Positions 18,259 to 54,011 of a DNA stretch of 64,000 bases are shown piece after piece. Positions within the stretch are counted from its first letter, which is position 1; each line of letters opens with the position of its first letter. Under the pieces are notes generated by a model. It worked only from the letters and a program-made list of their open reading frames with translations. It was not told where the DNA came from and did no database searches. The translations under genes were made by a program, and so were the position numbers. Origin of the DNA: Actinomycetales bacterium (lineage in GTDB: Bacteria; Actinomycetota; Actinomycetes; Actinomycetales; CAWJMD01); NCBI GenBank assembly GCA_047974565.1, contig JBKECN010000057.1, positions 49,560 to 113,559 of the forward strand, given 5' to 3'.

Positions 18259-18319
18259 GTTACTGTCAAGGATTAGATGGCTGGTTCCCAGGGTGCGGTT
18301 GGTGGGGTCCTCGGCGCCT

Positions 18320-18745
18320 GCGAAACGTCACCCGGGTCGCGAAGAGCAGCCTTGGGTAACGCTAGAAGCCACCCGAGGCGGCACAACGTCACCCGGGTCA
18401 CGAAAGCAGGCCCAAACGTCACCCGGGTCACCAAGTGCGGCCTTGGGTCACGCTAGATGCCACCCGAGGCGGCACAACGTCACCCGGGTCACGAAGTGCA
18501 GGCCCAAACGTCACCCGGGTCACGAAGAGCAGCCTTGGGCAACGCTAGAAGTCACCCGAGGCGGAACAACGTCACCCAGGTCACGAACTGCAGGCCCAAA
18601 CGCCACCCGGGTCACGAACTGCGGCCCTGGGTCACGCTAGAAGTCACCCGAGGCGGCACAACGTCACCCGGGTCACGACGGGCAGGCCCCAAACGTCACC
18701 CGGGTTGCGAAAGGGCGGGGCCCCAAACGTCACCGGGGTCACGAA
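18320..18745 (+). repeat. array 1 of the GTCAC-N4-GTCAC core repeat family (10 cores)
   Basis: Cores CGTCACCCGGGTCACG, or 1-2 nt variants, start at 18326, 18387, 18417, 18478, 18509, 18570, 18601, 18662, 18704 and 18728. Spacings are 61,30,61,31,61,31,61,42,24. Confidence 0.9.
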
Positions 18746-18813
18746 ACACGCTCTCGGGAGACGGTTGTCGGCGTCGTCAGGCAGCGCCTGAGGGGACAGC
18801 GTGCCCGGAGCGG

Positions 18814-19819: not shown

Positions 19820-20205
19820 CACCCGAAGCCACATTTCGCGACCAGGGTGACGTTTGGCCGCCGAACCTCGCGGCCCGGGTGACGTTTGGCGCCCGCACTT
19901 CGCGACCCGGGTGACATTTGGGCGCCTCGGGCAACCTCTACCGCCACCCCAGACCGCACTTCGTTACCCGGGTGACCTTTGGCCGCCGCTTTCGCGACCC
20001 GGGTGACGTTTGGCGCCTGCACTTCGCGACCCGGGTGACATTTGGCCACCTCCGGCAACCTCTACCGCCACCCCAGACCGCACTTCGCAACCAGGGTGAC
20101 GATTGGCCACTGCACTTCGCGGCCCGGGTGACGTTTGGCCACCTCGGGCAACCTCTACCGCCACCCCAGGCCGCACTTCGCTACCAGGGTGACGTTTGGC
20201 GTCCA
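19820..20205 (-). repeat. array 2 of the same core family, inverted relative to array 1 (9 cores)
   Basis: Reverse-complement cores CGCGACCCGGGTGACG (with variants) start at 19837, 19869, 19901, 19962, 19993, 20025, 20086, 20118 and 20179. Spacings are 32,32,61,31,32,61,32,61. Confidence 0.9.
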
Positions 20206-33648: not shown

Positions 33649-33722
33649 GCCGCCTTAGCTCAGTCGGCCAGAGCAACGCACTCGTAATGCGTAGGTCGAG
33701 GGTTCGATTCCCTCAGGCGGCT
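33649..33722 (+). tRNA. tRNA-Thr (anticodon CGU)
   Basis: Manual cloverleaf: acceptor GCCGCCT/AGGCGGC, D arm GCTC-AGTCGGCCA-GAGC, anticodon arm ACGCA-CTCGTAA-TGCGT, T arm GAGGG-TTCGATT-CCCTC, discriminator T. CCA is not encoded. Confidence 0.9.
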
Positions 33723-40461: not shown

Positions 40462-41634
40462 CTAGGAGGCGACGGCGATCTGCACGAGCATCGCCTCCAC
40501 GACCATGAGGGGGTTGGCGCTGGTGCCCAGGCGTGAGCGGGCCTCGGCAATGGCGTCCATCCGCCGCAGCGTCATCGTCGGCGTGCTGTCGCGGACCAGG
40601 CGGGCGAGCCGGTCTCGTTCGGAGCCGTTGACCAGTTCGGCGTCCGCTCCCAGTTGGAGCATGAGCACGTCCCGGTAGACCGACACCAGATCGAGCAGGG
40701 CCCGGTCGATGACGTCGCGTTTGAACCTGGTGGCGCGCTTCTTCTGTTCCGCCTCCAGGGCCTTGACCTGGCTGCGCACCGGTGGCGGCAGCCGGCTCTC
40801 GTTCTCATAGCCCAAGGCGCGAAGCAGTTCTGAGCGCTCGGTGGCGTCGCGGTCCGCGATCGATGCGGCGGCCTCCTCGTTGGCCACCTCGATCAGCCGA
40901 CCGGCTTGCAGCACGGCCCCTCCCACGCCGCGCAGGCCGAACGCCAGATCGAGCACCTCGTGACGCCGCAGCCGGGCATCCTCGTCCCGGGCCAGCCGCC
41001 AGGCCCGCCCGATGTGGCTCTGGGCCGCCTTGGCGGCGAAGGAGGCCATCGCCGGGTCGGCACCGCGACGGACCAGCAGTTCCGCGACGTCCGTGGTGGA
41101 CGGAACCCGGAGCCGAACCGGGCGACAGCGCGACCGGATGGTGACCGCGACGTCGTGAGGCCCGGGCGCGCACAGCATCCAGACCGTGCGCTCGGGTGGC
41201 TCCTCGATCGCTTTGAGCAGTGCGTTGTAGGCGTGCTCGTTGAGCCGGTCGGCATCTTCGATGAGCAACACACGCCAACGCCCCTGCGAGGGCGCCCGCG
41301 CAGCCACCTGGATCAGCTCGCGGGCCTCCTTCACGGCGATGATGCTGCCCTCGGTGGCCACCACGTGCACATCCGGGTGAGTCCCGGCCTGGACGGTGTG
41401 ACAGGAATGGCAGTGGCCGCAGCCCCCGGTCTCACACTGCAGTGCAGCGGCGAACGCCCGCGCGGCCGTGGAGCGCCCCGCCCCGGGAGGCCCGGTGAAC
41501 AGCCATGCGTGGGTCAGCCCGGGAACCTGCTCCCCGCCCACTGCGCGGGCGAAGCCGGCCACCGCGCCACGAAGCTCGGCCACGGGTTCGTTCTGCCCGA
41601 CGAGTTCGCTCCACACGTCGGTGCCCACGCTCAC
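40462..41634 (-). CDS. holB: DNA polymerase III subunit delta'
   Basis: Contains HAWLFTGPPGAGRS, the Zn module CETGGCGHCHSC, and LLKAIEEPP. The GTG at 41634 overlaps the tmk TGA (GTGA). The track start is 41646. Confidence 0.85.
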   Translation of the reverse strand: MSVGTDVWSELVGQNEPVAELRGAVAGFARAVGGEQVPGLTHAWLFTGPPGAGRSTAARAFAAALQCETGGCGHCHSCHTVQAGTHPDVHVVATEGSIIAVKEARELIQVAARAPSQGRWRVLLIEDADRLNEHAYNALLKAIEEPPERTVWMLCAPGPHDVAVTIRSRCRPVRLRVPSTTDVAELLVRRGADPAMASFAAKAAQSHIGRAWRLARDEDARLRRHEVLDLAFGLRGVGGAVLQAGRLIEVANEEAAASIADRDATERSELLRALGYENESRLPPPVRSQVKALEAEQKKRATRFKRDVIDRALLDLVSVYRDVLMLQLGADAELVNGSERDRLARLVRDSTPTMTLRRMDAIAEARSRLGTSANPLMVVEAMLVQIAVAS

Positions 41635-43835
41635 TCCGGCTCCCACGGGTCGCGTCCGGTGTGCGGCTGGGCGACGCCGCGGTCCGTTGGGTGGGTGTCG
41701 ATCGCCTCGGTGGCCGGTTGCGAGGTGGGCTTGGGCGAACGGCCGGACGACCGTTGCCTGGGCCGGTGCCCCGCGGGAGGCTCGAGCGCACCCTCGTCGA
41801 CACCCAGGGCCGGGCGCAGGCGCGCGGTGATCTGCTCGTTGATGTCGAGGGGATCGGCGGTGGCGTCGATGACGAGGTAACGACGTGGATGTCGCTTGGC
41901 CCGGTGCAGGAACCCTTGCCGGACCCGTTCATGGAACTCCAGACCCTCCGCCTCGACCCGGTCGAGGCTGCCTCCTGCGGCCGCCAGGCGCCGCCGGGCG
42001 ACCGCCGGGTCGATATCGAGGATGACTGTCAGATCGGGCAGGAGACCGGAAGTGGCCCAGGTGGAGATCCGCAGGATGCCTTCCGGGTCGAAGCCCCGGC
42101 CCGAGCCCTGGTAGGCGATCGAGGAGTCGAGGTACCGGTCGGTGATGACCACCTCGCCACGTTCGAGGGCCGGCAGCACCACCGTGTGGACGTGCTGTGC
42201 GCGGTCGGCCGCGAAGATGAGCGCCTCGGCGTGCGGGTTGAGCTGACCGCCGTGCAGCACGATCTGGCGCAGAGTGAGCCCCAACTCGGTGGCACCGGGC
42301 TCGCGGGTGGTGAGTACGGTACGGCCCAGATCGGTGCTCAGCCAGGAGGACAGCAACCGGATCTGACTGGTCTTGCCGGCGCCGTCGCCGCCCTCGAAGG
42401 CGATGAAGTAGCCGGAGTACTGGGGCTGGGTGTCCGCCCCCCGGGTCGGCCGGTTCTGCCAGGCCTGGGAGAGATCCTCGCTCAGACTCAGCGACGAGTG
42501 CTCGTTCATCGTGTGGTAACTCACCAGGCCGAGCACGATGGCGATGAGCCCGGCCACCCCGAGGGTGATGGAGGCACCGTTGTAGTTGAGTTCCACCGCG
42601 CTGATCCGCACCTGCCGTTCGCCGAACAGCGCTGCCAGGCCAGGGGCCACCGCCATCACCGCGATGAGCACGATCCGCGCGCCGTTCTGGACGAAGGCGA
42701 AGGTACGCCCGCGCACGTCGTCGGCCACCTCGGTACCGAGCATCGTGTAGCCGGTGACCCAGGCGACTCCGGCTGCGGTGCCCAGCAGCAGGGTGAAGAT
42801 GACGGCCAGCACACTGTTGGGGACCAGCGCCATCAAGCACAGCCAGAACCCCGCCAGCAGCAGCGAGAGCGCGAACATCCGCCAGCGGGACAGATCCGGA
42901 AGGAGCCTGGGACCTGCCCACATGCCCACGGCCAGCCCGGTGAAGACGGCGGCGAAGAGCATGCCATAGGCCGGAGCGCCGGCACCGAGATCGAGGGCGT
43001 AGGTGGGCGCGACCCCGATCACGAAGCCCCCGGCCCCGAAGGCCCCGAGCATGCCCACCACGAGGCCCCGGATGGTGCGGTTGCGACCCACGAACGACCA
43101 GCCGTCCACGATGGACCGCCACATGCCCGGCTCCCGGGCCGACGGATCGGGCCGCGACGCCGGACCCGGCGGAATCTTCAGCCGCCAGATCACCAGGGCC
43201 GCGACCAGGTTGGTCACCGCGTTGGCATACATCGCCATGTCTGGCGCACTACCGACCCACGGGGCGACATTGTCGATGACCCCGGTGAGCAGCGAGATAC
43301 CGGTGAACGCCAGGGCAGCCACCGGGGCCGAGCCGTACGTGGTGGCCAGGCTCAACTGGTTGGCTGCCTCGAGCCGCTCCTTGGGGACCAGGTTGGGCAC
43401 GGTGGCGTCCTTGGCGGGCATCCAGAACAGGCCGACGATCTCGGCCAGGACGGTGGCCACCATGAGCCACCACAGGGTGCCGACGATCGGGATGGAGAAG
43501 TACAGCCCGAAACGCACCAGGTCGCCGACCACCATCGTGGTCTTGCGGTCGAACCGGTCGGCGAAGGCACCGGCCAGCGGGCCCAGCAGCACTGCGGGGG
43601 CGAGCCGGAGGATGAGCACCCCGGAGACGGCGAGGTTGGCGGCCGCGTAGGAACTCTGGGCCCCCAGCCCGGCCGCCATCGCGGTGGCCGCCAACAGCCC
43701 GAGCCAGTCCCCGAAGGAGGACAGGCCCAGGGACAACCACAGCCGCCGGAAATCACGCAGGCGCAGCACTCCGCGCACGGCGTGGTCGGGGGTTTGGCTC
43801 ACCCGCTCAGGGTAACGACCAGCACCGACAGCCAC
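41631..43835 (-). CDS. tmk: fusion protein: N-terminal MFS-type 12-TM domain + C-terminal thymidylate kinase
   Basis: The N-terminal about 420 aa are polytopic (DFRRLWLSLGLSSFGDWLG..). The C-terminal part has FIAFEGGDGAGKTS (P-loop), TREPG and ITDRYLDSSIAYQG. Start is GTG 43835 or GTG 43802. Confidence 0.85.
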   Translation of the reverse strand: MAVGAGRYPERVSQTPDHAVRGVLRLRDFRRLWLSLGLSSFGDWLGLLAATAMAAGLGAQSSYAAANLAVSGVLILRLAPAVLLGPLAGAFADRFDRKTTMVVGDLVRFGLYFSIPIVGTLWWLMVATVLAEIVGLFWMPAKDATVPNLVPKERLEAANQLSLATTYGSAPVAALAFTGISLLTGVIDNVAPWVGSAPDMAMYANAVTNLVAALVIWRLKIPPGPASRPDPSAREPGMWRSIVDGWSFVGRNRTIRGLVVGMLGAFGAGGFVIGVAPTYALDLGAGAPAYGMLFAAVFTGLAVGMWAGPRLLPDLSRWRMFALSLLLAGFWLCLMALVPNSVLAVIFTLLLGTAAGVAWVTGYTMLGTEVADDVRGRTFAFVQNGARIVLIAVMAVAPGLAALFGERQVRISAVELNYNGASITLGVAGLIAIVLGLVSYHTMNEHSSLSLSEDLSQAWQNRPTRGADTQPQYSGYFIAFEGGDGAGKTSQIRLLSSWLSTDLGRTVLTTREPGATELGLTLRQIVLHGGQLNPHAEALIFAADRAQHVHTVVLPALERGEVVITDRYLDSSIAYQGSGRGFDPEGILRISTWATSGLLPDLTVILDIDPAVARRRLAAAGGSLDRVEAEGLEFHERVRQGFLHRAKRHPRRYLVIDATADPLDINEQITARLRPALGVDEGALEPPAGHRPRQRSSGRSPKPTSQPATEAIDTHPTDRGVAQPHTGRDPWEPE

Positions 43836-43896: not shown

Positions 43897-45231
43897 TCAG
43901 CGTGGCATCGCGGGCAGGCCGAGTTCGTACAGCCACGAGCGCCACAGCCCACGGGTGGAGGAGTCATGGCGGCTGGCCAGATCGATGAAGTCCTGCGTGG
44001 TGACCACCCCGTACTGGTTCCGGGCGCACCAGTCCCGCAGCAGTGAGAAGAAGACGCTGTCGCCCACATGCAAGCGCAGCGCGTGCAGGGTCAGGGCGCC
44101 GCGCTTGTAGACCCGGTCGTCGAACATCAGATCGGGGCCGGGGTCGGCAAGCCGCAGATCCTGCGGCGCCTGGGACAGCGCCGTCCAGTACTGCTGGGCC
44201 AACTCGCCTGCGCTGGGGCCTCCCGCTGACTGCGACCACAGCCATTCGGCGTAGCAGGCGAAGCCCTCGTGCAGCCAGATGTGTTCCCAGGCGGCGACGG
44301 TGACGCTGTTGCCGAACCACTGGTGAGCCAACTCGTGGGCGATGAGCCGCTCGTGCGTGCCGTCGAGATGATTGGCGCCGAAGACCGACAGCGACTGGGC
44401 CTCCAGCGGGATCTCCAGAGGGTCGTCGGTGACGACCACGCTGTACCGCGCGAAGGGATAGGGCCCGAACATCTCGGTGAATGCCTGCATCATCTGGGCC
44501 TGGCGGGCGAAGGCGACGTCGAAGTCACCGTGCAGGCGTGCAGGCAGGTAGGCGCGCAGTGGCACGCCGCTGGCCACTCCCAGGTCACGCTCGTCGTACC
44601 GGCCGATCTGCAAGGTGGCCAGGTAGGTGGCCATCGGCTCGGCGCTCTCATACTCCCAGCGCACCCGGCTGGCCTGCTGTCGCTGGGCTAGCGGCACCCC
44701 GTTGGCCACCACCCGGTAGCCGGACTCGGTGGTGATGGCGATCGCGAACCTCGCCTTGTTGCGCGGATGGTCATTGCACGGGAACCAGGACGGGGCACCG
44801 TTCGGCTGCCCGGCCACCAGGGCCCCGTCGGAGAGTTCCTCGAAGCCGACGTCGTCCCAGCGTCCGTGGATCGGCCGCGGTGAGCCGGAGTAGCCGACCT
44901 CCACGGTGATCGCCGAGCCCGCGCGCAACTGCTCGCGCAGTTGCACCCGCAGCCGTCCACTGCGATGGCTGTACCGGGCCGGGCTCTCCCCGTTCACCCG
45001 GATCTTCGAGACCCGCAGGGTGCCGGCCAGGTCAAGGTCGAGCCTGGAGAAGTCGACCTGGGCGCTGGCATGCAGCCGAGCCTTGCCCTCGAGCCGGTTG
45101 GTGCCCACCTTGTAGTCGAGATCGAGTTCGTAGCGGGACACCGCGTAGTCGTCGCTGCCGTGCTCGGGTAGATACGGATCGACCAGGGAATGGGACCGGG
45201 GCCGGGACTCGGTGTCTCGGCGCCGTCTCAC
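43897..45231 (-). CDS. M1-family zinc metallopeptidase (aminopeptidase N-like, short form)
   Basis: Contains HELAHQWFGN plus WLHEGFACYAE (HExxH-x18-E). Confidence 0.8.
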   Translation of the reverse strand: MRRRRDTESRPRSHSLVDPYLPEHGSDDYAVSRYELDLDYKVGTNRLEGKARLHASAQVDFSRLDLDLAGTLRVSKIRVNGESPARYSHRSGRLRVQLREQLRAGSAITVEVGYSGSPRPIHGRWDDVGFEELSDGALVAGQPNGAPSWFPCNDHPRNKARFAIAITTESGYRVVANGVPLAQRQQASRVRWEYESAEPMATYLATLQIGRYDERDLGVASGVPLRAYLPARLHGDFDVAFARQAQMMQAFTEMFGPYPFARYSVVVTDDPLEIPLEAQSLSVFGANHLDGTHERLIAHELAHQWFGNSVTVAAWEHIWLHEGFACYAEWLWSQSAGGPSAGELAQQYWTALSQAPQDLRLADPGPDLMFDDRVYKRGALTLHALRLHVGDSVFFSLLRDWCARNQYGVVTTQDFIDLASRHDSSTRGLWRSWLYELGLPAMPR

Positions 45232-45300
45232 CCGGCAACCCTAGGGCACGCGGGTGCGGGGGTGGATGTGAGGGACACCGACAGCGTCGCCACCGGCCGC

Positions 45301-45900
45301 GCAGCCGGAACCGGGAAGAAAGGGCACGCCCCAAACGTCACCAGGGTCACGTCTGGCAGCCTGAGGTGACCTCTAGCGTCGCCATCGGCCGCACTTCGTC
45401 ACCAGGGTCACGTCTGGCCGCGCACAACGTCACCCGGGTCACGTCCGGCAGCCACCGGTGACCACAACATGGCCATCTCCAGCCATCGGCCGCACAGCCG
45501 GAACCGGGAAGAAAGGGGCACGCCCCAAAACGTCACCGGGGTCGCATCTGGCAGCCGCAGGTAACCTCTAGCGTCGCCATCGGCCGCACTTCGTCACCCG
45601 GGTCACATCTGGTCGACGCACAACGTCACCCGAGTCACGTCTGGCAGCCACAGGTGACCTCAACTTGGCCATCGACAGCCATCGGCCGCACAGCCGGAGC
45701 CGGGAAGAAGGAGGCACGCCCCAAACGTCACCCGGGTCACATCTGGCAGCCAAGGGTGACCTCTAGCGTCGCCATCGGCCGCACTTCGTCACCCGGGTCA
45801 CGTCTGGGCGACGCACAGCGTCACCCGGGTCACGTCTGGCAGCCACAGGTGACATCTAGCGTCGCGACCGACCGCACTTTCGTCACCCGGGTCACGTCCG
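45301..45900 (+). repeat. array 3 of the core family: three copies of a 195-bp higher-order unit (10 cores)
   Basis: Cores start at 45335, 45396, 45427, 45530, 45591, 45623, 45725, 45786, 45818 and 45880. Spacings are 61,31,103,61,32,102,61,32,62. Each unit starts with CAGCCGGAACCGGGAAGAAAGG. Confidence 0.9.
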
Positions 45901-45999: not shown

Positions 46000-48900
46000 C
46001 TAGTCCGCCCACGGTGCGACGGGGTTCCCCGTCCAGCGGGTCCCGTCGGGCAAGGTGTCCCCGCGCAGCACCAGACTGGACGGACCGGCGGTGGTCCCCT
46101 CCCCGAGTCTGGCGGCGGGCAGCACCACCGAGTGCGAGCCCAGGGTGGCCCCGGGCGCCAGGCGCACCTCGTCCAGACTCATCACGCGATCGTGGAACAG
46201 GTGGGTCTGCACCACGCACCCGACGTTGACACAGGAGCCGTCCTCCAGGTGGACCAGATCTGCTTCGGGCAGCCAGTACGTCTCGCACCACACGCCGCGC
46301 CCGATGTGGGCGCCCATCGCCCGCAGCCACCAGTTGAGCACCGGGGCGCCGTAGGCACCGCGGGCGAACCACGGCACGGCCATCATCTCCACGAACGTGT
46401 CGGCCAACTCGTTGCGCCAGATGAAACTGCTCCACAAGGGGTGCTCACCGGTCCGGATCCGCCCGACCAGCAGCCACTTGGCCGCCACCGCCACTGCACA
46501 CGAGACCAGCGCCGCCATCGCCATCACCGGTGCCGCTGCCAGCACCGTGGCCGCCAACCCCCAGCGGATGAGGATCGCCTCCAAACCGAGCAGGACGCCG
46601 ACCGCGACCGCGACCGTGCCGATCACCGAGAACACCCGCAGCACCTCCACCCCGGCCCGGGCGAAGCGCAGCCGGGTCGGTGGCGCGAAGGTGAGCGAGT
46701 CGTCGCCCGCATCGGTGTCCCGGCGCAGCAACTGGGGTGGCGAGCCCACCCAGGAGGTGCCCTTCTTCGCCTTGGGCGGGGCACTGGAGAGCACGGCGAC
46801 CAGCCCGTGTTTGGGCACGCGACGACCGGGAGCGGTCATCCCCGAGTTCCCGAGGAAGGCCCGCTTGCCCACCTTGGCGCGTTCGATCCGAAGCCAGCCG
46901 TGACTGAGCTCGTACGAGGCGATCATCGTGTCGTCGGCCAGGAAGGCACCCTCGCCCACGCTCGTCATGCTGGGCAGCATGAGCACCGTCGAGGCCTCCA
47001 CGTTCGGGGCGATCTTGGCCCCCAGGGCCCGCAGCCACACCGGGGTGAACATGCTGGCGTAGAGCGGGAAGAGCAGGCCCCGGGCGTCGTCCATCAGCCG
47101 TTCGGTGGCCCACACCTGCCAGCCCACCCGGCTGCGGATCGGGTGATGCCCCTCGACCAGGCCCCACCCGAGCAGCCGGACGCACGCCCAGGTGATGAAG
47201 GCTTGGACGACGAACATCACCACCGCCCCCAGCGGCACCCACACCCACACCCGGCGAGCCACCTGCCCGATCGAATCGACCTCCCCCATCCCCCAGGCCA
47301 TGACGGCCAGGCCGACCAGCGCGGCGACCAATGGCAAGGCCGCCAACCCGGCCGCGGTGGCCGCGTACACCCCCACCCACACCCGACTCTTCGGCAGTCG
47401 CCGCTCCGGGAGGTCGAGCCGGGCCCGACCGATGAACTCGGCAGGGCTGCCCGCCCACAGCTCACCCGGCGGGACGGTCGACAGGACGGCCGAGCCCGGG
47501 GCGACCACCGCCTCCTGGCCCACCCGGGTGCCGCCCAACAGCACGCTGCGCGAACCGACGGTGGCGCCGGCGTCTACCCGGATCCGCCCCACATGGACCA
47601 CGTCGCCGTCCACCCAGTGCCCGGAAAGGTCCACCTCCGGCTCGATGGACGCGCCCCGCTTGAGGGTGAGCATGCCGGTGACCGGCGGCAACGAGTGCAG
47701 ATCGACGTTGCGTCCGATCCGAGCGCCGAGAGCCCGGGCGTAGTGGGTGAGCCAGGGGGCGGCAGCCAGGTGTCCCACCCCGGCAGCGGAGGCGAAGGCC
47801 TCGGTGAACCACAACCGCAGATGCATGCTGCCACCGCGCGGATACCGTCCGGGCGTCAACCCGCGCAGCAGCACCCGGGCGAGCGCGACCGTCAGGCCCA
47901 TCCGGCCCAGCGGTGTGATGAGTACCAGCCAGCCCAGCAGGATCCACCACCACGAGACATGCGGGATCCACCGCGCGTGCCCGATCGCCGCGGCGAGGTT
48001 GCCCAGCAGGGCCAGCCAGGTCAGCCAGCGCAAACCGACGACCCCGAGCAGCGGCAGGCCGAGCACGGTCTGGAGCCACTGGGCGCCCAATGGAACCGGG
48101 CGCACGTGGCGTCCGGTGGTCGTCACCGGCGGGTCGAACTCCTCCACCCGGTTCAGCAGGTCGCCGAAGCCGGGCGTGTCGTAGATGTCGGCGACGGTGA
48201 TGGTCGGTACCCGGGTCCGCAGCGCCGAGACGAGTTGGGCCGCCGCGAGGCTGCCGCCGCCGGCATCGAAGAAGTCGTCGGCCAGGCTCGTCACGGACGT
48301 GCCGAGCACCCGCGCCCACGCCTGGGCCAGCCATTCCCCGGTCTCGCCCAACCCGCTGATCTGGGGGGCGGACGGGCCGCCGGCATCGCTGAGTTCGACG
48401 GGCCAGGGCAAGGCGTCGCGGTCGACCTTGCCGCTGACCTTGGTGGGGATGGTGTCCACGACGACGAGTTTGGGCACGAGGGCGGCCGGGAGCCGGTCCC
48501 GGAGTTGGCCACGAGCCTGGGCGAGGTCGGGGCTCGCGTCCGCGTGCGGGGCGAGGTAGCCGACGAGCAGTTGGCTGCCGCCGTCGGTTCGGCGTACGGC
48601 GGCTGCGGCGGCCGCGACGCCGGGCAGGTCTTGCAGGGCGGCGTCCACCTCGCCGAGTTCGATCCGCCGTCCACCGAGTTTGACCTGATCGTCGGCGCGC
48701 CCCATGAAGACCAGCCCGGCGGACTCCAGCCGCACCAGATCGCCGCTGCGGTAAGCCCTTTCCCAGCCGAGTGCCGGGGCCGGGGCGTACTTCTCGGCGT
48801 CCTTGGCCGGGTCGAGGTAGCGGGCCAGCCCGACGCCGCCGATGACCAACTCGCCGACCTCACCGTCGCCGACCCGGCGCCCGTCGCCGTCCACGACGGC

Positions 48901-49974
48901 CAGATCCCATCCGTCCAGCGGGAAGCCGATTCGGACCGGGCCGGTGCCGTCCATGAGTGCCGCGCAGGCGACCACCGTGGCCTCGGTGGGTCCGTAGGTG
49001 TTCCACACCTGCCGGTCGTTGGTGGCGAGTCTGGCCGCGAGCTCGGGTGGGCAGGCTTCGCCGCCGAAGATGAGCATCCGGACGCCGGCCAGTTCCTCGG
49101 GCTGCCACAGGCCGGCCAGGGTGGGGACGGTGGAGATGATGCTCACCTGCTGCTCGACCAGCCACGGCCCCAGATCCATACCGGTGCGCACCAGCGCGCG
49201 CGGGGCCGGCACCAGGCAGGCGCCATTGCGCCAGGCGAGCCACATCTCCTCACACGAAGCGTCGAAGGCCACCGACAGGCCCGCAAGCACCCGGTCCCCC
49301 GGGCCGAGGGGATCGTCCTGCAGGAAGAGGCGGGCCTCGGCGTCGACGAAGGCGGCCGCGTTGCGGTGCCGCACGGCCACTCCCTTGGGGGTGCCGGTGG
49401 AGCCGGAGGTGAAGATGATCCAGGCGTCGTCCTCGGGATCCGGACGCCCCGCTACCAGGCCATCCGGCGACATGTCCGGCTGAGCCGACTCGGACCCATC
49501 ACGGCCGGACGCCGACCGGGTGCCGTGCGCGGTGAACTCGAAGTCGTCGGACAGCACCCCCGCGACTGCGGCCTCGCCGAAGACGGTCCGGGCCCGCTCA
49601 GCAGGGTCGTCGATGTCCACCGGCACGTAGGCCGCCCCGGCCCGCAGCACGGCGAGGATCGCGAGGTAGAGGTCGGCGCTGCCGGAGGACATCCGGACGC
49701 CGACACGGTCCCCGGGGCGCACGCCCAGCCGGTAGAGGGTTCGCGCCCGAGTGGTGATCTCGTCCCACAGGTCGCGGTAGGAGATCCTGCGGTCGCCGTC
49801 ATCGATGGCCGGCGCGTCGGCGTGGGCGCGCACGGTGTCGGCCAGCACGTCCATCAGCGTGCGGGTGGGGGGCGCCAACGGCGAACGGTCGTAGCGGCCC
49901 TGGCCGCGATCGACGGCCTCCGGCTCCGATGAACCGACCCCGGGCAACGCCGAATCGGACAGCGAGGCATCCAC
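46000..49974 (-). CDS. Pls/PosA-type single-module NRPS: A domain - T domain - three [2 TM + hexapeptide/LbH] modules
   Basis: A-domain motifs are IIFTSGSTGTPKGV, FDAS, NTYGPTEAT, YRSGD, GRADDQVKLGGRRIELGEV and SGKVDR. The T domain is FFDAGGGSLAA. Three repeats follow: LRALGARIG.., LRALGAKIA.. and LRAMGAHIG.., each after a TM pair. There is no C or TE domain. Confidence 0.85.
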   Translation of the reverse strand: MDASLSDSALPGVGSSEPEAVDRGQGRYDRSPLAPPTRTLMDVLADTVRAHADAPAIDDGDRRISYRDLWDEITTRARTLYRLGVRPGDRVGVRMSSGSADLYLAILAVLRAGAAYVPVDIDDPAERARTVFGEAAVAGVLSDDFEFTAHGTRSASGRDGSESAQPDMSPDGLVAGRPDPEDDAWIIFTSGSTGTPKGVAVRHRNAAAFVDAEARLFLQDDPLGPGDRVLAGLSVAFDASCEEMWLAWRNGACLVPAPRALVRTGMDLGPWLVEQQVSIISTVPTLAGLWQPEELAGVRMLIFGGEACPPELAARLATNDRQVWNTYGPTEATVVACAALMDGTGPVRIGFPLDGWDLAVVDGDGRRVGDGEVGELVIGGVGLARYLDPAKDAEKYAPAPALGWERAYRSGDLVRLESAGLVFMGRADDQVKLGGRRIELGEVDAALQDLPGVAAAAAAVRRTDGGSQLLVGYLAPHADASPDLAQARGQLRDRLPAALVPKLVVVDTIPTKVSGKVDRDALPWPVELSDAGGPSAPQISGLGETGEWLAQAWARVLGTSVTSLADDFFDAGGGSLAAAQLVSALRTRVPTITVADIYDTPGFGDLLNRVEEFDPPVTTTGRHVRPVPLGAQWLQTVLGLPLLGVVGLRWLTWLALLGNLAAAIGHARWIPHVSWWWILLGWLVLITPLGRMGLTVALARVLLRGLTPGRYPRGGSMHLRLWFTEAFASAAGVGHLAAAPWLTHYARALGARIGRNVDLHSLPPVTGMLTLKRGASIEPEVDLSGHWVDGDVVHVGRIRVDAGATVGSRSVLLGGTRVGQEAVVAPGSAVLSTVPPGELWAGSPAEFIGRARLDLPERRLPKSRVWVGVYAATAAGLAALPLVAALVGLAVMAWGMGEVDSIGQVARRVWVWVPLGAVVMFVVQAFITWACVRLLGWGLVEGHHPIRSRVGWQVWATERLMDDARGLLFPLYASMFTPVWLRALGAKIAPNVEASTVLMLPSMTSVGEGAFLADDTMIASYELSHGWLRIERAKVGKRAFLGNSGMTAPGRRVPKHGLVAVLSSAPPKAKKGTSWVGSPPQLLRRDTDAGDDSLTFAPPTRLRFARAGVEVLRVFSVIGTVAVAVGVLLGLEAILIRWGLAATVLAAAPVMAMAALVSCAVAVAAKWLLVGRIRTGEHPLWSSFIWRNELADTFVEMMAVPWFARGAYGAPVLNWWLRAMGAHIGRGVWCETYWLPEADLVHLEDGSCVNVGCVVQTHLFHDRVMSLDEVRLAPGATLGSHSVVLPAARLGEGTTAGPSSLVLRGDTLPDGTRWTGNPVAPWAD

Positions 49975-50020
49975 ACGAACAGGCTAGCGGCCCACCCGGG
50001 CCATTCTCGTCAGGCGGTCA

Positions 50021-50785
50021 TCAACCCGACAGGACGATGATGTCGAGCCCGTCCGGGGTCGCCAGGCTCGCGTGGTGACCAGGTGCAGTGGCGAGATCGC
50101 GCAGGCGCCATCGCGACGGTCCTGGAGCCACCTCACTCATCGTCGAGCCCGCCGCGTGGGCTAGCGATGACGCGGCATCCGCCCTCGATCGGGCGCCGTC
50201 CACGTCGGAAACTGTGCCGGGATAGGCGGTGGGACCGTCTTCCACCTCGGGAACGGTGAGCACCTCGAAGCGAGCATCAAGGCGACTCGGTGACACAGCC
50301 ATGCCGATCCCGGCGGCTTTGAGGGCTGCCTCCTTGGCTGTCCACCACCGGGCAGCCACCTGGGTCGCCGCCGGAGCCTCGAGTCGAGCCAGCTCGGCGA
50401 GTTCGTTGGGGTGGAAGGCCACCTCACTGGCGGTCATCGGGGCCAGGCTGCGCACCTCCTCCACGTCCACCCCGCAGGGCTGGTGGCACACGGCGACCAC
50501 CACCACGTCCCCGGCATGGGAGATCGACACCCACGCCGCCGGGACCCCATCGAGGGCGATGAGCGGCCGGCCCCACGGGCCCAGGGCGACTCCGATCCGG
50601 TCGGGCGCCACATCCAGACACGCTGCGGCGGTCTGGCGGGCCAATGTCCTGCCGGTCGCGTGCCGGGCAGCGTCCAGTGGCGACCGGAAGGCCGCACACC
50701 GAGCACGCTCGTGCGGTGTCAGCAACGGGTTCGCGATCTCCTGCGGGCCGGGCGGCGACTGCCGCACATGCACAGGAGTGACCAT
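50021..50785 (-). CDS. 4'-phosphopantetheinyl transferase (Sfp type)
   Basis: Contains GRPLIA.., ISHAGDVVVVAV, CGVDVEE and WTAKEAALKA. Lies 46 nt upstream of the NRPS start on the same strand. This is the inner part of track ORF 50021..51058. Confidence 0.75.
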   Translation of the reverse strand: MVTPVHVRQSPPGPQEIANPLLTPHERARCAAFRSPLDAARHATGRTLARQTAAACLDVAPDRIGVALGPWGRPLIALDGVPAAWVSISHAGDVVVVAVCHQPCGVDVEEVRSLAPMTASEVAFHPNELAELARLEAPAATQVAARWWTAKEAALKAAGIGMAVSPSRLDARFEVLTVPEVEDGPTAYPGTVSDVDGARSRADAASSLAHAAGSTMSEVAPGPSRWRLRDLATAPGHHASLATPDGLDIIVLSG

Positions 50786-51028
50786 GGCCCCAGCATGCAC
50801 GGGGCTCTGCCGACGTGGATACCGAGGTGACGCAGAGCGCTGGCGTCGCAAGCCGCTGCCGCAGCGCAGCGTCGCAAACCGCTGGTGCAACGCAGGGGGC
50901 AACCGCCATGGCCCATTCAGGCAACTTTCTATCTTTTCGGTCATATCCGGTATCACCGCAAAGGCGCGTGGACTCTTTTGTCGCACGTTGCGCCACACGG
51001 GCGTGGCGACCACGACACGGAAGGGAAG

Positions 51029-52198
51029 ATGATGAAAGTCACTGGCAGATCCGCCCAACGAGCGAGCCTGATCGGCCTTGCGGCGACGCTACTCTGCGTC
51101 CCGGCGCTGGTCGGCGCGAGCACCGGCGCGCAAGCCACTCCAATCCAAAAGCATTTCGAGACAGCGATTTCCAGTGTCCCTCAGTTGAGCGAGGAAGCAT
51201 GGCGGGCAGGCAAGGCCGAGCACGGTGCGTCGACCACCGCGCAGCAGGCGGTGGAGTCCTACTGGACGGTCAGCCGAATGAAGGCCGCCAAGGACATTGC
51301 GGACTCCCCCGAGCTTCGTACGGCCGAGAAGCGATTCGACGAAGAGTTGGCCGCGCAACAGCGCCAGGCGAAGCAGGGCAACGGCCCCGCGCGCGAGACG
51401 CAAGGGCCTGAGCAGACGTTCGCACCCGCCTCGTCGACAGTCGCCGCGATGCCGGAGGCGGCGGCCGGTACCGAGTCCGCTTCGGGTCTCCTACCCATGT
51501 CGAACCCCGACCTCGCATACTGGCACCCGACGGCGCGGACGAACGGCAAGGTCTTCTTCACGATGGACGGGCAGAACTATGCTTGCTCTGCCTCTGTAGT
51601 GAACTCCGCGGGAAAGAACACCGTCTGGACGGCGGGACATTGCGTTCATGGCGGGCGGGGTGGAAGTTGGGCTACCAACTGGAGTTTCGTACCTGCCTAC
51701 GATGACGACCTGGCCAATCCCCGGCCCTACGGAACCTGGACCGCTCGACAATTGTGGGCACTGACCAGTTGGACCGGGAGTTCTGATTTCACCTCCGACA
51801 TGGCGGTGGCCGTGATGAACCCCCGAAACGGTCACCACATCGTCAATTACCTCGGCGGACACGGTCTACGAATCAACGCCAGCAAGTCGACTTCCATGAA
51901 CATCTTCGGCTATTCCGCGGTCGCGCCCTTGGATGGCGGGAACCTGCGCAAATGCCAGGGAACTTCGTCACCTGAAGTTTCTTTCCTGTGGTGGTCTTCG
52001 GACACGCTCAAAGTCTCGTGTTCCGACATGAACCGAGGGGCAAGCGGTGGGCCATGGCTGGCGAATTACGGCGGCGGTTACGGCTATCTGAACGGGATCA
52101 ACAGCAGGGTCGACAGCTACACGAATCCCAGGCTCGTGATGTCAGCCTACTTCGACGACAGCGCACTCACGCTGTACAACGCAACCACAGGCCTGTGA
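51029..52198 (+). CDS. secreted trypsin-like (S1) serine protease
   Basis: The signal peptide ends ..ALVGASTGAQA. The catalytic triad contexts are WTAGHCV, SDMAVAVM and NRGASGGPW. An RBS (ggaaggga) is present. The gene is visibly more AT-rich than its neighbours. Confidence 0.8.
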   Translation: MMKVTGRSAQRASLIGLAATLLCVPALVGASTGAQATPIQKHFETAISSVPQLSEEAWRAGKAEHGASTTAQQAVESYWTVSRMKAAKDIADSPELRTAEKRFDEELAAQQRQAKQGNGPARETQGPEQTFAPASSTVAAMPEAAAGTESASGLLPMSNPDLAYWHPTARTNGKVFFTMDGQNYACSASVVNSAGKNTVWTAGHCVHGGRGGSWATNWSFVPAYDDDLANPRPYGTWTARQLWALTSWTGSSDFTSDMAVAVMNPRNGHHIVNYLGGHGLRINASKSTSMNIFGYSAVAPLDGGNLRKCQGTSSPEVSFLWWSSDTLKVSCSDMNRGASGGPWLANYGGGYGYLNGINSRVDSYTNPRLVMSAYFDDSALTLYNATTGL

Positions 52199-52532: not shown

Positions 52533-53108
52533 ATGGCCGTGAGGAAACCCAGCACGCACCGCCCGCAGCACCGGAGGGGCACCGACCCCCGTGCCCGCCG
52601 AGTGCGGCGGTGGTGCGCGATAGCAGTGCTCTGCCTCATCGGCTGCGGCTGCGCCACACCGGGCAACTCGGACCCGAAGGAGACCATGACCTCGCCGAGC
52701 AACGAGCCCACCGCTCCGAGCACTCCGGACAACCCTGAGGTGCCACCGCCTCCCATGCCCGACGAATCCCCGAGCGGGTCGACACCTAGCATTCCGCCCA
52801 ATGCCCCGTCAGTGGTCACCCCGGTAGCCGGCGAGAACCGACGTAACGCCGACTGGCACCTGGCTGAACTGAGGGACGAGGGGCGCACTGTGCTTTTGGA
52901 CGTGCAGATCGCGGGGCCGCCCTGCGATGTCGTGACCGGACTCCGGGTCGACCAGGGCAGTGACGCCGTCCGGGTCGCCGTCCTGGCGGGTCCGCAGGAG
53001 GGAGCCCAGTGCCCACCCGGCCTCATCGCCCGAGCCGGCGTCGTGCGGGTCGAGGTGCGGCTCACTGAGCCGCTCGGCGATCGCACTCTTGCGCAGCTGG
53101 GCGGCTGA
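52533..53108 (+). CDS. hypothetical lipoprotein
   Basis: The basic N-terminus is followed by AIAVLCLIGCGC (lipobox-like) and a Pro/Ser-rich linker. I recognise no other motif. Confidence 0.5.
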   Translation: MAVRKPSTHRPQHRRGTDPRARRVRRWCAIAVLCLIGCGCATPGNSDPKETMTSPSNEPTAPSTPDNPEVPPPPMPDESPSGSTPSIPPNAPSVVTPVAGENRRNADWHLAELRDEGRTVLLDVQIAGPPCDVVTGLRVDQGSDAVRVAVLAGPQEGAQCPPGLIARAGVVRVEVRLTEPLGDRTLAQLGG

Positions 53109-53309
53109 GGGCCCACCCCGGGTGGTCCCGGCGAGCGTGGACTGCATCAGTGCTGCCCTGCGACGCCGAGGGCCGGATGGGCCCCTACACACGCCAAGCC
53201 TTGGACCCGGGATCGAAGGCACCACGCCGACTCCCGCCCGGCTCGCCACCGGATGAGCCCGCCGGTCCCGAGATGTCGCGACCGCACCCCAGCCAGTACG
53301 GTGATAATC

Positions 53310-54011
53310 ATGAGCGAGCAGACGAGTCCAACGGCAACGGCGCAGATCCTCGTCGGTGAGAACGGGCCCTATGAGGTGCGTGGCGTGCGGGTCGAGCGCA
53401 CTCGGGTGATCAACGACGAGCACGGCCATGCCCGCGAGTATGAGACCTACGCGCAGGTGCACGACGGCGCCGAGCCGACCTGGTTGTGCCGCTGCGGGCA
53501 TTCGAAGAACAAGCCGTTCTGCGACGGCTCACATCACACCGCCGGGCCGGACGGCGGGCCGTTCGACGGAACCGAGAACGCCCCGACGAACACCTACCGG
53601 GAGCGCGCGGAGGTGCTGGGCGGCGACGGCGTGCAGGTCAGCGACGATCGGGGCATCTGCGTGCACGCCGGTTTCTGCGCCACGCATGGGGCGAACGTGT
53701 GGCGTGAGGTGAAGCAGTCGCAAGATCCGCAGGTCCGGGACGATATGACCACCCGGATCGACAAGTGCCCCTCGGGTGCCCTCACCCGACGGCCAGAGGC
53801 CGATGCACCGGACGACGAGCCCGACTATCCCCGCGCGGTGCATGTGGTGGCGGACGGGCCGTTGCACGTCACCGGCCGAGTGCAGGTGACCCGCGCGGAC
53901 GGGGAGACCTTCGAGACCCGCAACCGGATGACCCTGTGCCGGTGCGGGGCCTCGGCGATCAAGCCGTTGTGCGACGGCAGCCACGCCGAGACCGGTTTCA
54001 CCGACTCCTGA
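53310..54011 (+). CDS. CDGSH iron-sulfur domain protein (two CDGSH motifs flanking a Cys-rich central domain)
   Basis: The CDGSH motifs are CRCGHSKNKPFCDGSH and CRCGASAIKPLCDGSH. The central part reads GICVHAGFCATHG...IDKCPSGAL. This is the inner part of track ORF 53253..54011. Confidence 0.8.
   Translation: MSEQTSPTATAQILVGENGPYEVRGVRVERTRVINDEHGHAREYETYAQVHDGAEPTWLCRCGHSKNKPFCDGSHHTAGPDGGPFDGTENAPTNTYRERAEVLGGDGVQVSDDRGICVHAGFCATHGANVWREVKQSQDPQVRDDMTTRIDKCPSGALTRRPEADAPDDEPDYPRAVHVVADGPLHVTGRVQVTRADGETFETRNRMTLCRCGASAIKPLCDGSHAETGFTDS

What the first reader, a model, noticed from the sequence alone, without database searches (positions are those of the whole stretch)
46000..50785. Pls/PosA-architecture synthetase in an operon with its own PPTase: candidate cationic homo-poly-amino-acid synthetase
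The 1324-aa protein has a complete adenylation domain and a thiolation domain (GGGSL) but no condensation or thioesterase domain. In their place are three tandem modules. Each module has two TM helices followed by a left-handed beta-helix/hexapeptide-like soluble domain beginning LRA(L/M)GAxIG. This is the layout described for epsilon-poly-L-lysine synthetase (Pls) and relatives that make other amino-acid homopolymers. A Sfp-type PPTase gene sits 46 nt upstream on the same strand. The product in this organism is unknown, and polymers from such enzymes are antimicrobial polycations.
Basis: partly seen in the sequence, partly recalled or inferred. Interest (0 to 1): 0.65.

Follow-up and report, generated by a model that had tools for sequence, protein, structure and literature searches.

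The report
Ordinary epsilon-poly-lysine synthetase gene cluster
This is a real but ordinary member of the well-known epsilon-poly-L-lysine synthetase family that is widespread in actinobacteria; it sits between an activating enzyme gene and a partner peptidase gene, and its product is predictable rather than unknown.

Summary
ORF 46000-49974 (-) encodes a 1324-aa protein with an adenylation domain, a carrier domain (Ser575 in GGGSL) and the TIGR02353 'Pls/PosA' terminal domain (691 bits against a cutoff of 423). It has six TM helices in three pairs and three mutually homologous left-handed beta-helix domains, and no C or TE domain. An Sfp-type PPTase gene (50021-50785, -) ends 46 nt upstream.

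The product is not really unknown. The 10-residue specificity code is DAESIGTVVK, identical to the published code of Streptomyces albulus Pls (Lys). The A domain is 63% identical to the solved Pls A domain (7wew). The whole protein is 52% identical to a Streptomyces Pls orthologue and only 30% identical to PosA.

This is the conserved pls partner (PldII-type), present in 68 of 80 actinobacterial loci. The best prediction is therefore epsilon-poly-L-lysine.

The exact protein is already in NCBI as 'Pls/PosA family NRPS', more than 7,900 homologues exist, and the spread of pls in coryneform actinobacteria is published. PPTase linkage recurs only in some Micrococcales and here lies in a lineage-specific insertion. 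It is a new member of a known kind and of low interest. A minisatellite-like repeat array fills the pls-peptidase gap.

The parts
50021..50785 (-). Sfp-type 4'-phosphopantetheinyl transferase (254 aa, ATG start). It would convert the apo carrier domain of the synthetase to the holo form.
   Evidence: PF01648 ACPS (E 4e-14) and PF22624 AASDHPPT_N. The best solved relative is B. subtilis Sfp, 1qr0/4mrt, E 1.3e-10. The stop codon is 46 nt upstream of the pls start. GC3 is 0.79 against 0.91 for pls. The gene is absent from the syntenic locus of the 76% relative L001.
46000..49974 (-). pls-type synthetase, 1324 aa (A-T-[TM2-LbH]x3); predicted epsilon-poly-L-lysine synthetase.
   Evidence: The protein is 100% identical to the NCBI entry 'MAG: Pls/PosA family non-ribosomal peptide synthetase [Actinomycetales bacterium]'.
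48397..49872 (-). Adenylation domain (residues about 35-526). Specificity code DAESIGTVVK = D238 A239 E242 S281 I302 G304 T326 V334 V335 K516.
   Evidence: E 9e-181 and 63% identity to 7wew_A, the S. albulus epsilon-poly-L-lysine synthase A domain. Code extracted; it is identical to the Pls code in Supplementary Table 2 of PMC10522769.
48148..48336 (-). Thiolation (carrier) domain, residues 547-609. The phosphopantetheine attachment site Ser575 (GGGSL) is encoded at 48250-48252.
   Evidence: PF00550, E 2.3e-9. Motif position.
47389..48066 (-). Module 1: TM1 and TM2 plus beta-helix domain C1 (residues 637-862).
   Evidence: Hydropathy; internal homology; matches to hexapeptide acyltransferases at residues about 750-858; AF2 and Foldseek.
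46663..47388 (-). Module 2: TM3 and TM4 plus beta-helix domain C2 (residues 863-1104).
46003..46662 (-). Module 3: TM5 and TM6 plus beta-helix domain C3 (residues 1105-1324).
43897..45231 (-). M1-family zinc metallopeptidase (444 aa, HELAH...E site intact, no signal peptide or TM). It is the counterpart of the pls-linked PldII-type polymer-degrading peptidase.
   Evidence: PF01433 and PF17900. 42-44% identical to the gene immediately downstream of pls in S. albulus-like Streptomyces loci L004/L005, 71% to L001 and 56% to Cellulomonas hominis. Present in 68 of 80 loci. Active-site alignment and maximum hydropathy of 1.13; N-terminal comparison. The pls-pldII operon is described in PMC8117764.

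Best explanation
This is a three-gene epsilon-poly-L-lysine module on the minus strand.

Proposed mechanism:
1. The Sfp-type PPTase attaches phosphopantetheine to Ser575 of the synthetase.
2. The adenylation domain activates L-lysine with ATP and loads it as a thioester on the carrier domain.
3. The C-terminal half is six membrane helices carrying three beta-helix domains that pack like an acyltransferase trimer. It repeatedly transfers the lysyl unit onto the epsilon-amino group of a free lysine, and then onto the non-covalently held growing chain. This releases an epsilon-linked polylysine polycation at or through the membrane.
4. The downstream M1 zinc peptidase is the counterpart of PldII. 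It cleaves the polymer for self-protection or chain trimming. Because it has no signal peptide here, it probably acts inside the cell.

What is shown here: domain content, topology, fold, specificity code, homology and gene linkage.
What is inferred: lysine as the substrate, the epsilon linkage, the chain length, export, co-transcription and the peptidase's substrate. These rest on homology and on published work on S. albulus Pls.
For: - Family membership: TIGR02353 scores 691 bits against a cutoff of 423.
- Closest solved structure: 7wew, the S. albulus epsilon-PL synthase A domain, at E 9e-181 and 63% identity.
- Specificity code: DAESIGTVVK is identical to the experimentally confirmed Pls code. 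It differs from all five other characterised polymer synthetases: Orn DMEHNGTVSK, Dab DFECLSAVTK, Dap DFEYVGTVTK, beta-Lys DGESVSVVNK and D-Dab DFECLSCVSK. Position 2 is Ala, the residue that PMC10522769 links to the six-carbon substrate.
- Identity: 52% over the full length to a Streptomyces Pls whose A domain is 92% identical to S. albulus Pls, against 30% to PosA. For comparison, the experimentally confirmed C. variabile Pls is 51% identical to S. albulus Pls and 31-33% identical to the other synthetases.
- Tree: an NJ tree places the protein with its 76% relative and Cellulomonas hominis, inside the actinobacterial Pls clade, with PosA as outgroup.
- Partner gene: an M1 peptidase lies downstream of pls in 68 of 80 loci, as described for pls-pldII.
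- Fold: the AF2 model (pLDDT 85, pTM 0.87) matches beta-helix acyltransferases, in line with the published PosA model.
- Mechanism: the steps are taken from the review PMC9205021.
Against: - There is no biochemical evidence for this protein.
- I did not have full-length S. albulus Pls (BAG68864) or the sequences of four of the six characterised synthetases. Clade placement therefore rests on a proxy Streptomyces orthologue, on PosA taken from OCR text, and on the specificity codes.
- The native C. variabile host produced no detectable epsilon-PL, so such genes can be silent.
- The peptidase is separated from pls by 768 nt of repeats, compared with 111 nt or a 4-nt overlap in relatives. It also lacks the Tat-like signal seen in the S. 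albulus-like homologues. Its coupling to pls and its site of action may therefore differ from PldII.
- No promoter or terminator could be assigned, so operon structure is unproven.
Confidence: 0.8

Rival explanations
1. The enzyme polymerises a different diamino acid (ornithine, diaminobutyrate, diaminopropionate or beta-lysine), as PosA and the PDAB, PDAP and PBL synthetases do.
For: The architecture is the same for all of these enzymes. Specificity codes are predictive rather than proof, and PosA itself was first predicted to activate Lys by its nearest code match.
Against: The code matches Pls at 10 of 10 positions. Position 2 is Ala, not Met, Phe or Gly. Identity is 30% to PosA against 52-63% to Pls. 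The locus has the Pls-type peptidase partner and no dat/ask-type precursor genes.
Confidence: 0.06
2. The enzyme activates lysine, but the physiological product or role differs from secreted antimicrobial 25-35-mer epsilon-PL. Examples are short oligomers, or a cell-associated polycation that is turned over by a cytoplasmic peptidase.
For: The partner peptidase has no signal peptide or TM here, nor in most non-Streptomyces loci, whereas S. albulus-like homologues carry a Tat-like signal and PldII acts outside the membrane. Chain length depends on linker regions (reference cited), and the T-linker region is only 32% identical to the Streptomyces orthologue. The repeat array uncouples pls from the peptidase gene.
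Against: C. variabile Pls is equally distant from Streptomyces Pls, yet it made 26-35-mers when expressed. Nothing in the sequence points to another acceptor.
Confidence: 0.1
3. The cluster is silent or decaying and makes nothing in this organism.
For: C. variabile shows no detectable Pls protein or epsilon-PL under laboratory conditions. A 768-nt repeat insertion lies inside the conserved pls-peptidase pair.
Against: All three ORFs are intact. pls has the highest GC3 of the region (0.91), and the catalytic and code residues are conserved. Being silent in the laboratory is regulation, not loss of function.
Confidence: 0.04

Closest known systems
Epsilon-poly-L-lysine synthetase Pls of Streptomyces albulus (BAG68864; A domain PDB 7wew) with its partner PldII
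   Same: The layout is the same: A-T-(TM2-C)x3. The 10-residue specificity code DAESIGTVVK is identical. The A domain is 63% identical, and the whole protein is about 52% identical to a close Streptomyces orthologue. An M1 peptidase gene lies downstream on the same strand.
   Different: There is a dedicated PPTase gene 46 nt upstream. The peptidase gene is 768 nt away behind a repeat array rather than translationally coupled, and it lacks the Tat-like signal peptide. The locus sits in a housekeeping region (topA ... tmk-holB) of a Cellulomonas-related genome.
Pls of Corynebacterium variabile and the pls homologues of coryneform actinobacteria (Jiang et al. 2021, PMC8117764)
   Same: It is a non-Streptomyces actinobacterial pls with the Pls-type code and a peptidase partner, at a similar distance (about 51-52%) from Streptomyces Pls. 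The genera listed in that paper include Micrococcales such as Arthrobacter, Microbacterium and Micrococcus.
   Different: I had no C. variabile sequence and made no direct comparison. The excerpts I read from that paper do not mention PPTase linkage.
PosA, the delta-poly-L-ornithine synthetase of Acinetobacter baumannii (PMC10522769)
   Same: Same family model (TIGR02353) and same architecture. The predicted C-terminal fold is also the same: six bent TM helices and three packed beta-helices.
   Different: Identity is only 30%. The PosA code is DMEHNGTVSK, with Met at position 2, against DAESIGTVVK with Ala here.
Trimeric left-handed beta-helix (hexapeptide) acyltransferases, for example serine and galactoside O-acetyltransferases
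   Same: The fold of each C domain matches (Foldseek E about 1e-6). Three beta-helices pack together.
   Different: Here the three helices are fused in one chain and anchored by TM pairs, and the acyl donor is a carrier-bound aminoacyl thioester rather than acyl-CoA.

Membership tests
Pls/PosA family (cationic homo-poly-amino-acid synthetases) | The TIGR02353 terminal domain scores above the curated cutoff | tested here: met
   691.5 bits against a cutoff of 423.1, covering residues 634-1319 and profile positions 2-695 of 695.
Pls/PosA family (cationic homo-poly-amino-acid synthetases) | A single N-terminal adenylation domain and a carrier domain with the attachment serine, and no condensation or thioesterase domain | tested here: met
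   PF00501, PF13193 and PF00550 are found, and TIGR01733 scores 348.9 against a cutoff of 317.4. No C or TE family is reported. The attachment serine is Ser575 in GGGSL.
Pls/PosA family (cationic homo-poly-amino-acid synthetases) | Six transmembrane helices in three pairs separating three tandem soluble domains | tested here: met
   Kyte-Doolittle segments, long helices in the AF2 model and internal BLASTP E values of 2e-12, 3e-14 and 2e-5. No dedicated topology predictor was run.
Pls/PosA family (cationic homo-poly-amino-acid synthetases) | The soluble domains adopt the left-handed beta-helix acyltransferase fold | tested here: met
   phmmer against the PDB. AF2 gives pLDDT 85 and pTM 0.87. 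All of the top 50 listed Foldseek hits are hexapeptide acyltransferases.
Pls/PosA family (cationic homo-poly-amino-acid synthetases) | Iterative isopeptide polymerisation of a diamino acid | not testable with these tools
   This needs expression and product analysis.
Epsilon-poly-L-lysine synthetase (Pls in the strict sense) | A-domain specificity code DAESIGTVVK (Ala at position 2) | tested here: met
   Code extracted and reference table read. The same column mapping returns the published code for the Streptomyces orthologue L004.
Epsilon-poly-L-lysine synthetase (Pls in the strict sense) | At least 40% identity over at least 80% coverage to an experimentally confirmed Pls (the criterion of PMC8117764) | tested here: inconclusive
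   Identity is 63% to the solved S. albulus A domain only. Full-length identity is 52% over residues 30-1320 to Streptomyces sp. MspMP-M5 Pls, a proxy whose A domain is 92% identical to S. albulus. Full-length BAG68864 was not available.
Epsilon-poly-L-lysine synthetase (Pls in the strict sense) | A PldII-type peptidase gene lies immediately downstream on the same strand | tested here: met
   An M1 peptidase is encoded at 43897-45231. The pairing is conserved in 68 of 80 loci. Caveats: the gap here is 768 nt and the protein has no signal peptide.
Epsilon-poly-L-lysine synthetase (Pls in the strict sense) | The product is epsilon-linked poly-L-lysine | not testable with these tools
   This needs LC-MS or NMR of the product.
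PosA (delta-poly-L-ornithine synthetase) | Code DMEHNGTVSK, with Met at position 2 | tested here: not met
   The code here is DAESIGTVVK, and identity to PosA is 30%.
Poly-Dap / poly-Dab / poly-beta-Lys synthetases | Phe (Dap, Dab) or Gly (beta-Lys) at code position 2 | tested here: not met
   Position 2 is Ala239. The full sequences of these enzymes were not available for a tree.
Sfp-type (group II) PPTase | A two-lobed protein of about 230-250 aa with the ACPS domain and the AASDHPPT-type N-terminal lobe | tested here: met
   PF01648 at 53 bits and PF22624 at 31.9 bits, both above their cutoffs. The best PDB relative is Sfp.

The most novel reading that the evidence does not exclude
In this Cellulomonas-related lineage the pls module may have been rewired. 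A PPTase was brought in upstream on a lower-GC3 insertion, and a lineage-specific minisatellite was inserted between pls and a signal-less, apparently cytoplasmic PldII-like peptidase. Polymer synthesis and degradation could then be uncoupled and regulated differently from Streptomyces. This might give a polymer of different length, location or role (for example cell-associated rather than a secreted antibiotic).
Probability: 0.1. Interest if true: 0.35.

Novelty: new member of a known kind. Interest (0 to 1): 0.15.

Why it matters
It matters little beyond cataloguing. It adds one more uncultured actinobacterium (an NCBI 'Actinomycetales bacterium' MAG) to the long list of likely epsilon-polylysine producers. 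Two points have some practical value. Pls genes in Micrococcales sometimes carry their own PPTase, which could help when designing heterologous expression. Most non-Streptomyces partner peptidases lack a secretion signal, which bears on how these organisms protect themselves from the polymer.

Tried and rejected
1. Hidden RNA or regulatory element near pls. Rfam at gathering threshold over the whole window found only one tRNA, at 33649-33722. The sigma-70 and terminator scan of 43.5-53.5 kb gave no more than the shuffles.

2. CRISPR-like or structured-RNA reading of the pls-peptidase repeat array. The 'spacers' repeat too. One 195-nt unit folds no better than shuffles (z -0.40).

3. Spread of the repeat family.
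- The 14-mer core has no relevant match in the 86 other loci.
- The 26-mer has no exact metagenome match.
This led nowhere.

4. PPTase linkage. Plain tblastn with the window PPTase found almost nothing. A small profile built from the first phmmer hits found five genome loci plus C. hominis. Sensitivity to very divergent PPTases is limited, so the count is a lower bound.

5. 50885-52198 (+) as part of the cluster. It is a secreted trypsin-like protease, divergent from the PPTase and absent from L001. No link to pls was shown.

6. The MFS domain fused to thymidylate kinase as a polymer exporter. This was rejected because the fusion stays next to holB in L001, while other genes separate it from pls there.

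7. Full-length solved structure for the C-terminal domain. None is in the PDB copy, whether searched by sequence or by fold.
Full report
**Observation.** The window has about 70% G+C. On the minus strand, ORF 46000-49974 encodes 1324 aa.
- Pfam finds AMP-binding (residues 46-385), AMP-binding_C and PP-binding (547-609). It finds no condensation or thioesterase domain.
- NCBIfam TIGR02353, named 'Pls/PosA family non-ribosomal peptide synthetase', covers residues 634-1319 at 691.5 bits against a cutoff of 423.1. TIGR01733 also passes its cutoff.
- The carrier serine is Ser575 in GGGSL.
- Hydropathy gives six TM segments in three pairs.
- The three TM-pair-plus-soluble-domain modules are homologous to one another (BLASTP E 2e-12, 3e-14, 2e-5).
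- The Pfam hexapeptide hit is below threshold. However, the C-terminal half matches serine acetyltransferases and gamma-carbonic anhydrases by sequence.
- An AlphaFold2 model of residues 620-1324 (26-sequence alignment A1, pLDDT 85, pTM 0.87) has left-handed beta-helix acyltransferases as all of its top 50 listed Foldseek PDB matches.
- The upstream ORF 50021-50785 (-) is an Sfp-type PPTase (PF01648 and PF22624; best PDB relative Sfp). It ends 46 nt before the pls start.

**What it is.**
- The exact protein is already in NCBI as 'MAG: Pls/PosA family non-ribosomal peptide synthetase [Actinomycetales bacterium]'. More than 7,900 homologues score E <= 1e-20. The nearest are 76% identical (an unnamed 3.6-Mb genome) and about 65% (Cellulomonas), followed by Rhodococcus, Kribbella, Nocardia and Demequina at about 62%.
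- The best solved relative is 7wew, the adenylation domain of S. albulus epsilon-poly-L-lysine synthase, at E 9e-181 and 63% identity.
- I mapped the ten Stachelhaus positions through the conserved core motifs, using GrsA numbering from my own knowledge. The mapping is validated because the same columns return the published code for the Streptomyces orthologue. The result is DAESIGTVVK.
- Supplementary Table 2 of the PosA paper lists exactly this code for S. albulus Pls (Lys, experimentally confirmed). The other five characterised enzymes have different codes: Orn DMEHNGTVSK, L-Dab DFECLSAVTK, Dap DFEYVGTVTK, beta-Lys DGESVSVVNK and D-Dab DFECLSCVSK. That paper argues that position 2 sets substrate length, with Ala for Lys, Met for Orn and Phe for Dap/Dab.
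- A genome scan seeded with the 7wew sequence returned 80 actinobacterial loci. Across these, the earlier loci and the window itself, 78 of 82 proteins carry the identical code.
- The window protein is 52% identical over its full length to the Pls of Streptomyces sp. MspMP-M5, whose A domain is 92% identical to S. albulus Pls. It is 30% identical to PosA; the PosA sequence came from OCR text in the supplement.
- For scale, the experimentally confirmed C. variabile Pls is 51% identical to S. albulus Pls and 31-33% identical to the other synthetases.
- An NJ tree places the window protein with its 76% relative and Cellulomonas hominis, inside the actinobacterial Pls clade, with PosA as outgroup.

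**Context.**
- The gene downstream on the same strand (43897-45231) is an M1 zinc metallopeptidase with an intact HELAH...E site.
- A homologue lies downstream of pls in 68 of the 80 loci, directly downstream in 67 of them. It also does so in the 76% relative (111-nt gap), in C. hominis and a metagenomic relative (4-nt overlap) and in Cellulomonas sp. ICMP 17802.
- Two differences stand out here. The gap is 768 nt and is filled with repeats. The peptidase has no signal peptide or TM, whereas the S. albulus-like Streptomyces homologues have a Tat-like RRALLRGAALLPLAATA leader and PldII acts on the outside of the membrane.
- The PPTase is much less conserved as a neighbour. A small profile search found one within 8 kb in only five of the 80 genome loci (Specibacter, Zafaria, Arthrobacter, Pseudarthrobacter, Nesterenkonia), plus C. 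hominis and one metagenomic relative. Positions and orientations vary. All the named genera are Micrococcales; Zafaria and Specibacter were checked, and the rest are from my own knowledge.
- In the syntenic locus of the 76% relative, pls lies 53 nt from a divergent CDGSH gene. The PPTase, the trypsin-like protease and the hypothetical ORFs (50021 to about 53250) are absent there. These genes also have lower GC3, 0.74-0.81 against 0.86-0.91 for the neighbouring genes. The PPTase therefore sits in a lineage-specific insertion.
- The whole module lies between topA and the tmk-holB pair in both genomes.

**Mechanism.** The steps follow what is established for S. albulus Pls (review PMC9205021).
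1. The PPTase primes Ser575.
2. The A domain adenylates L-lysine and loads it on the carrier.
3. The C-terminal membrane domain transfers the lysyl unit to the epsilon-amino group of free lysine and then of the growing chain, which is never covalently bound. The enzyme acts iteratively.

The three beta-helices packing as a pseudo-trimer on six bent TM helices was already predicted for PosA, and my model agrees in fold and confidence. The peptidase presumably degrades the polymer. Substrate, linkage, chain length, export and co-transcription are inferences.

**Comparison and novelty.** Every defining feature of the Pls/PosA family that can be tested in silico is met. So are the Pls-specific features (code and partner gene). 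The identity criterion is met only through a proxy for the full-length reference. PosA-type and Dap/Dab/beta-Lys-type codes are not met. The wide presence of pls in coryneform and other non-filamentous actinobacteria, with the same code and the peptidase partner, was published in 2021. This is a new, uncharacterised member of a known kind.

**Dead ends.** Rfam, the promoter and terminator scans, folding of the repeat unit and collection scans for the repeat core gave nothing.

Noticed in passing
window 45289-45900 (intergenic, between the pls stop at 46000 and the M1 peptidase start at 45231): A minisatellite-like array of 195-bp units, 2.9 copies at 90% match. Each unit carries three copies of the 18-mer GACGTGACCCGGGTGACG, giving ten copies on the minus strand. 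Relatives have only 111 nt or a 4-nt overlap at this position, so it looks like an insertion into the conserved pls-peptidase pair. It is not CRISPR-like because the spacers repeat too. The unit has no special RNA fold (z -0.4) and no Rfam hit. The core is absent from the 86 other loci, and no multi-copy metagenome hits were found.
   Followed up: partly
window 18315-18763, and a single copy at 19991-20008: A second intergenic array of the same repeat family, with core CGTCACCCGGGTCAC and units of about 91-92 bp in four copies. Across the window the 18-mer matches 26 times at up to 3 mismatches, against 0.44 expected. This is a dispersed, genome-specific tandem-repeat family, MIRU-like in placement.
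   Followed up: partly
window 41631-43835 (-): A single 734-aa ORF fuses an N-terminal MFS transporter domain (residues about 24-455) to a C-terminal thymidylate kinase (480-669). It overlaps the start of holB. The same fusion (816 aa) is present in the 76% relative L001. This is an unusual architecture for an essential kinase.
   Followed up: no
window 50885-52198 (+), with the likely true start at the MMK codons near 51029: A predicted secreted trypsin-like (S1) serine protease. It has a signal-peptide-like N-terminus, a TAGHCV motif and a GASGGP motif. It is divergent from the PPTase, has low GC3 (0.74) and is absent from the syntenic locus L001. Together with the PPTase and ORF(s) of unknown function at 52533-53501, it forms an insertion of about 3.2 kb between the CDGSH gene and pls.
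   Followed up: partly
L004, L005 and L007 compared with the window and most other loci (M1 peptidase N-termini): Only the S. albulus-like Streptomyces pls-linked peptidases carry a Tat-like leader (RRALLRGAALLPLAATA). The window's peptidase and those of most other actinobacterial genera have no hydrophobic N-terminal segment. This suggests a cytoplasmic location outside that Streptomyces clade.
   Followed up: partly
window 53253-54011 (+): A protein with two CDGSH iron-sulfur domains and a divergent 4Fe-4S mono-cluster domain lies divergently upstream of the pls region. It keeps this position, immediately next to pls, in the 76% relative.
   Followed up: no
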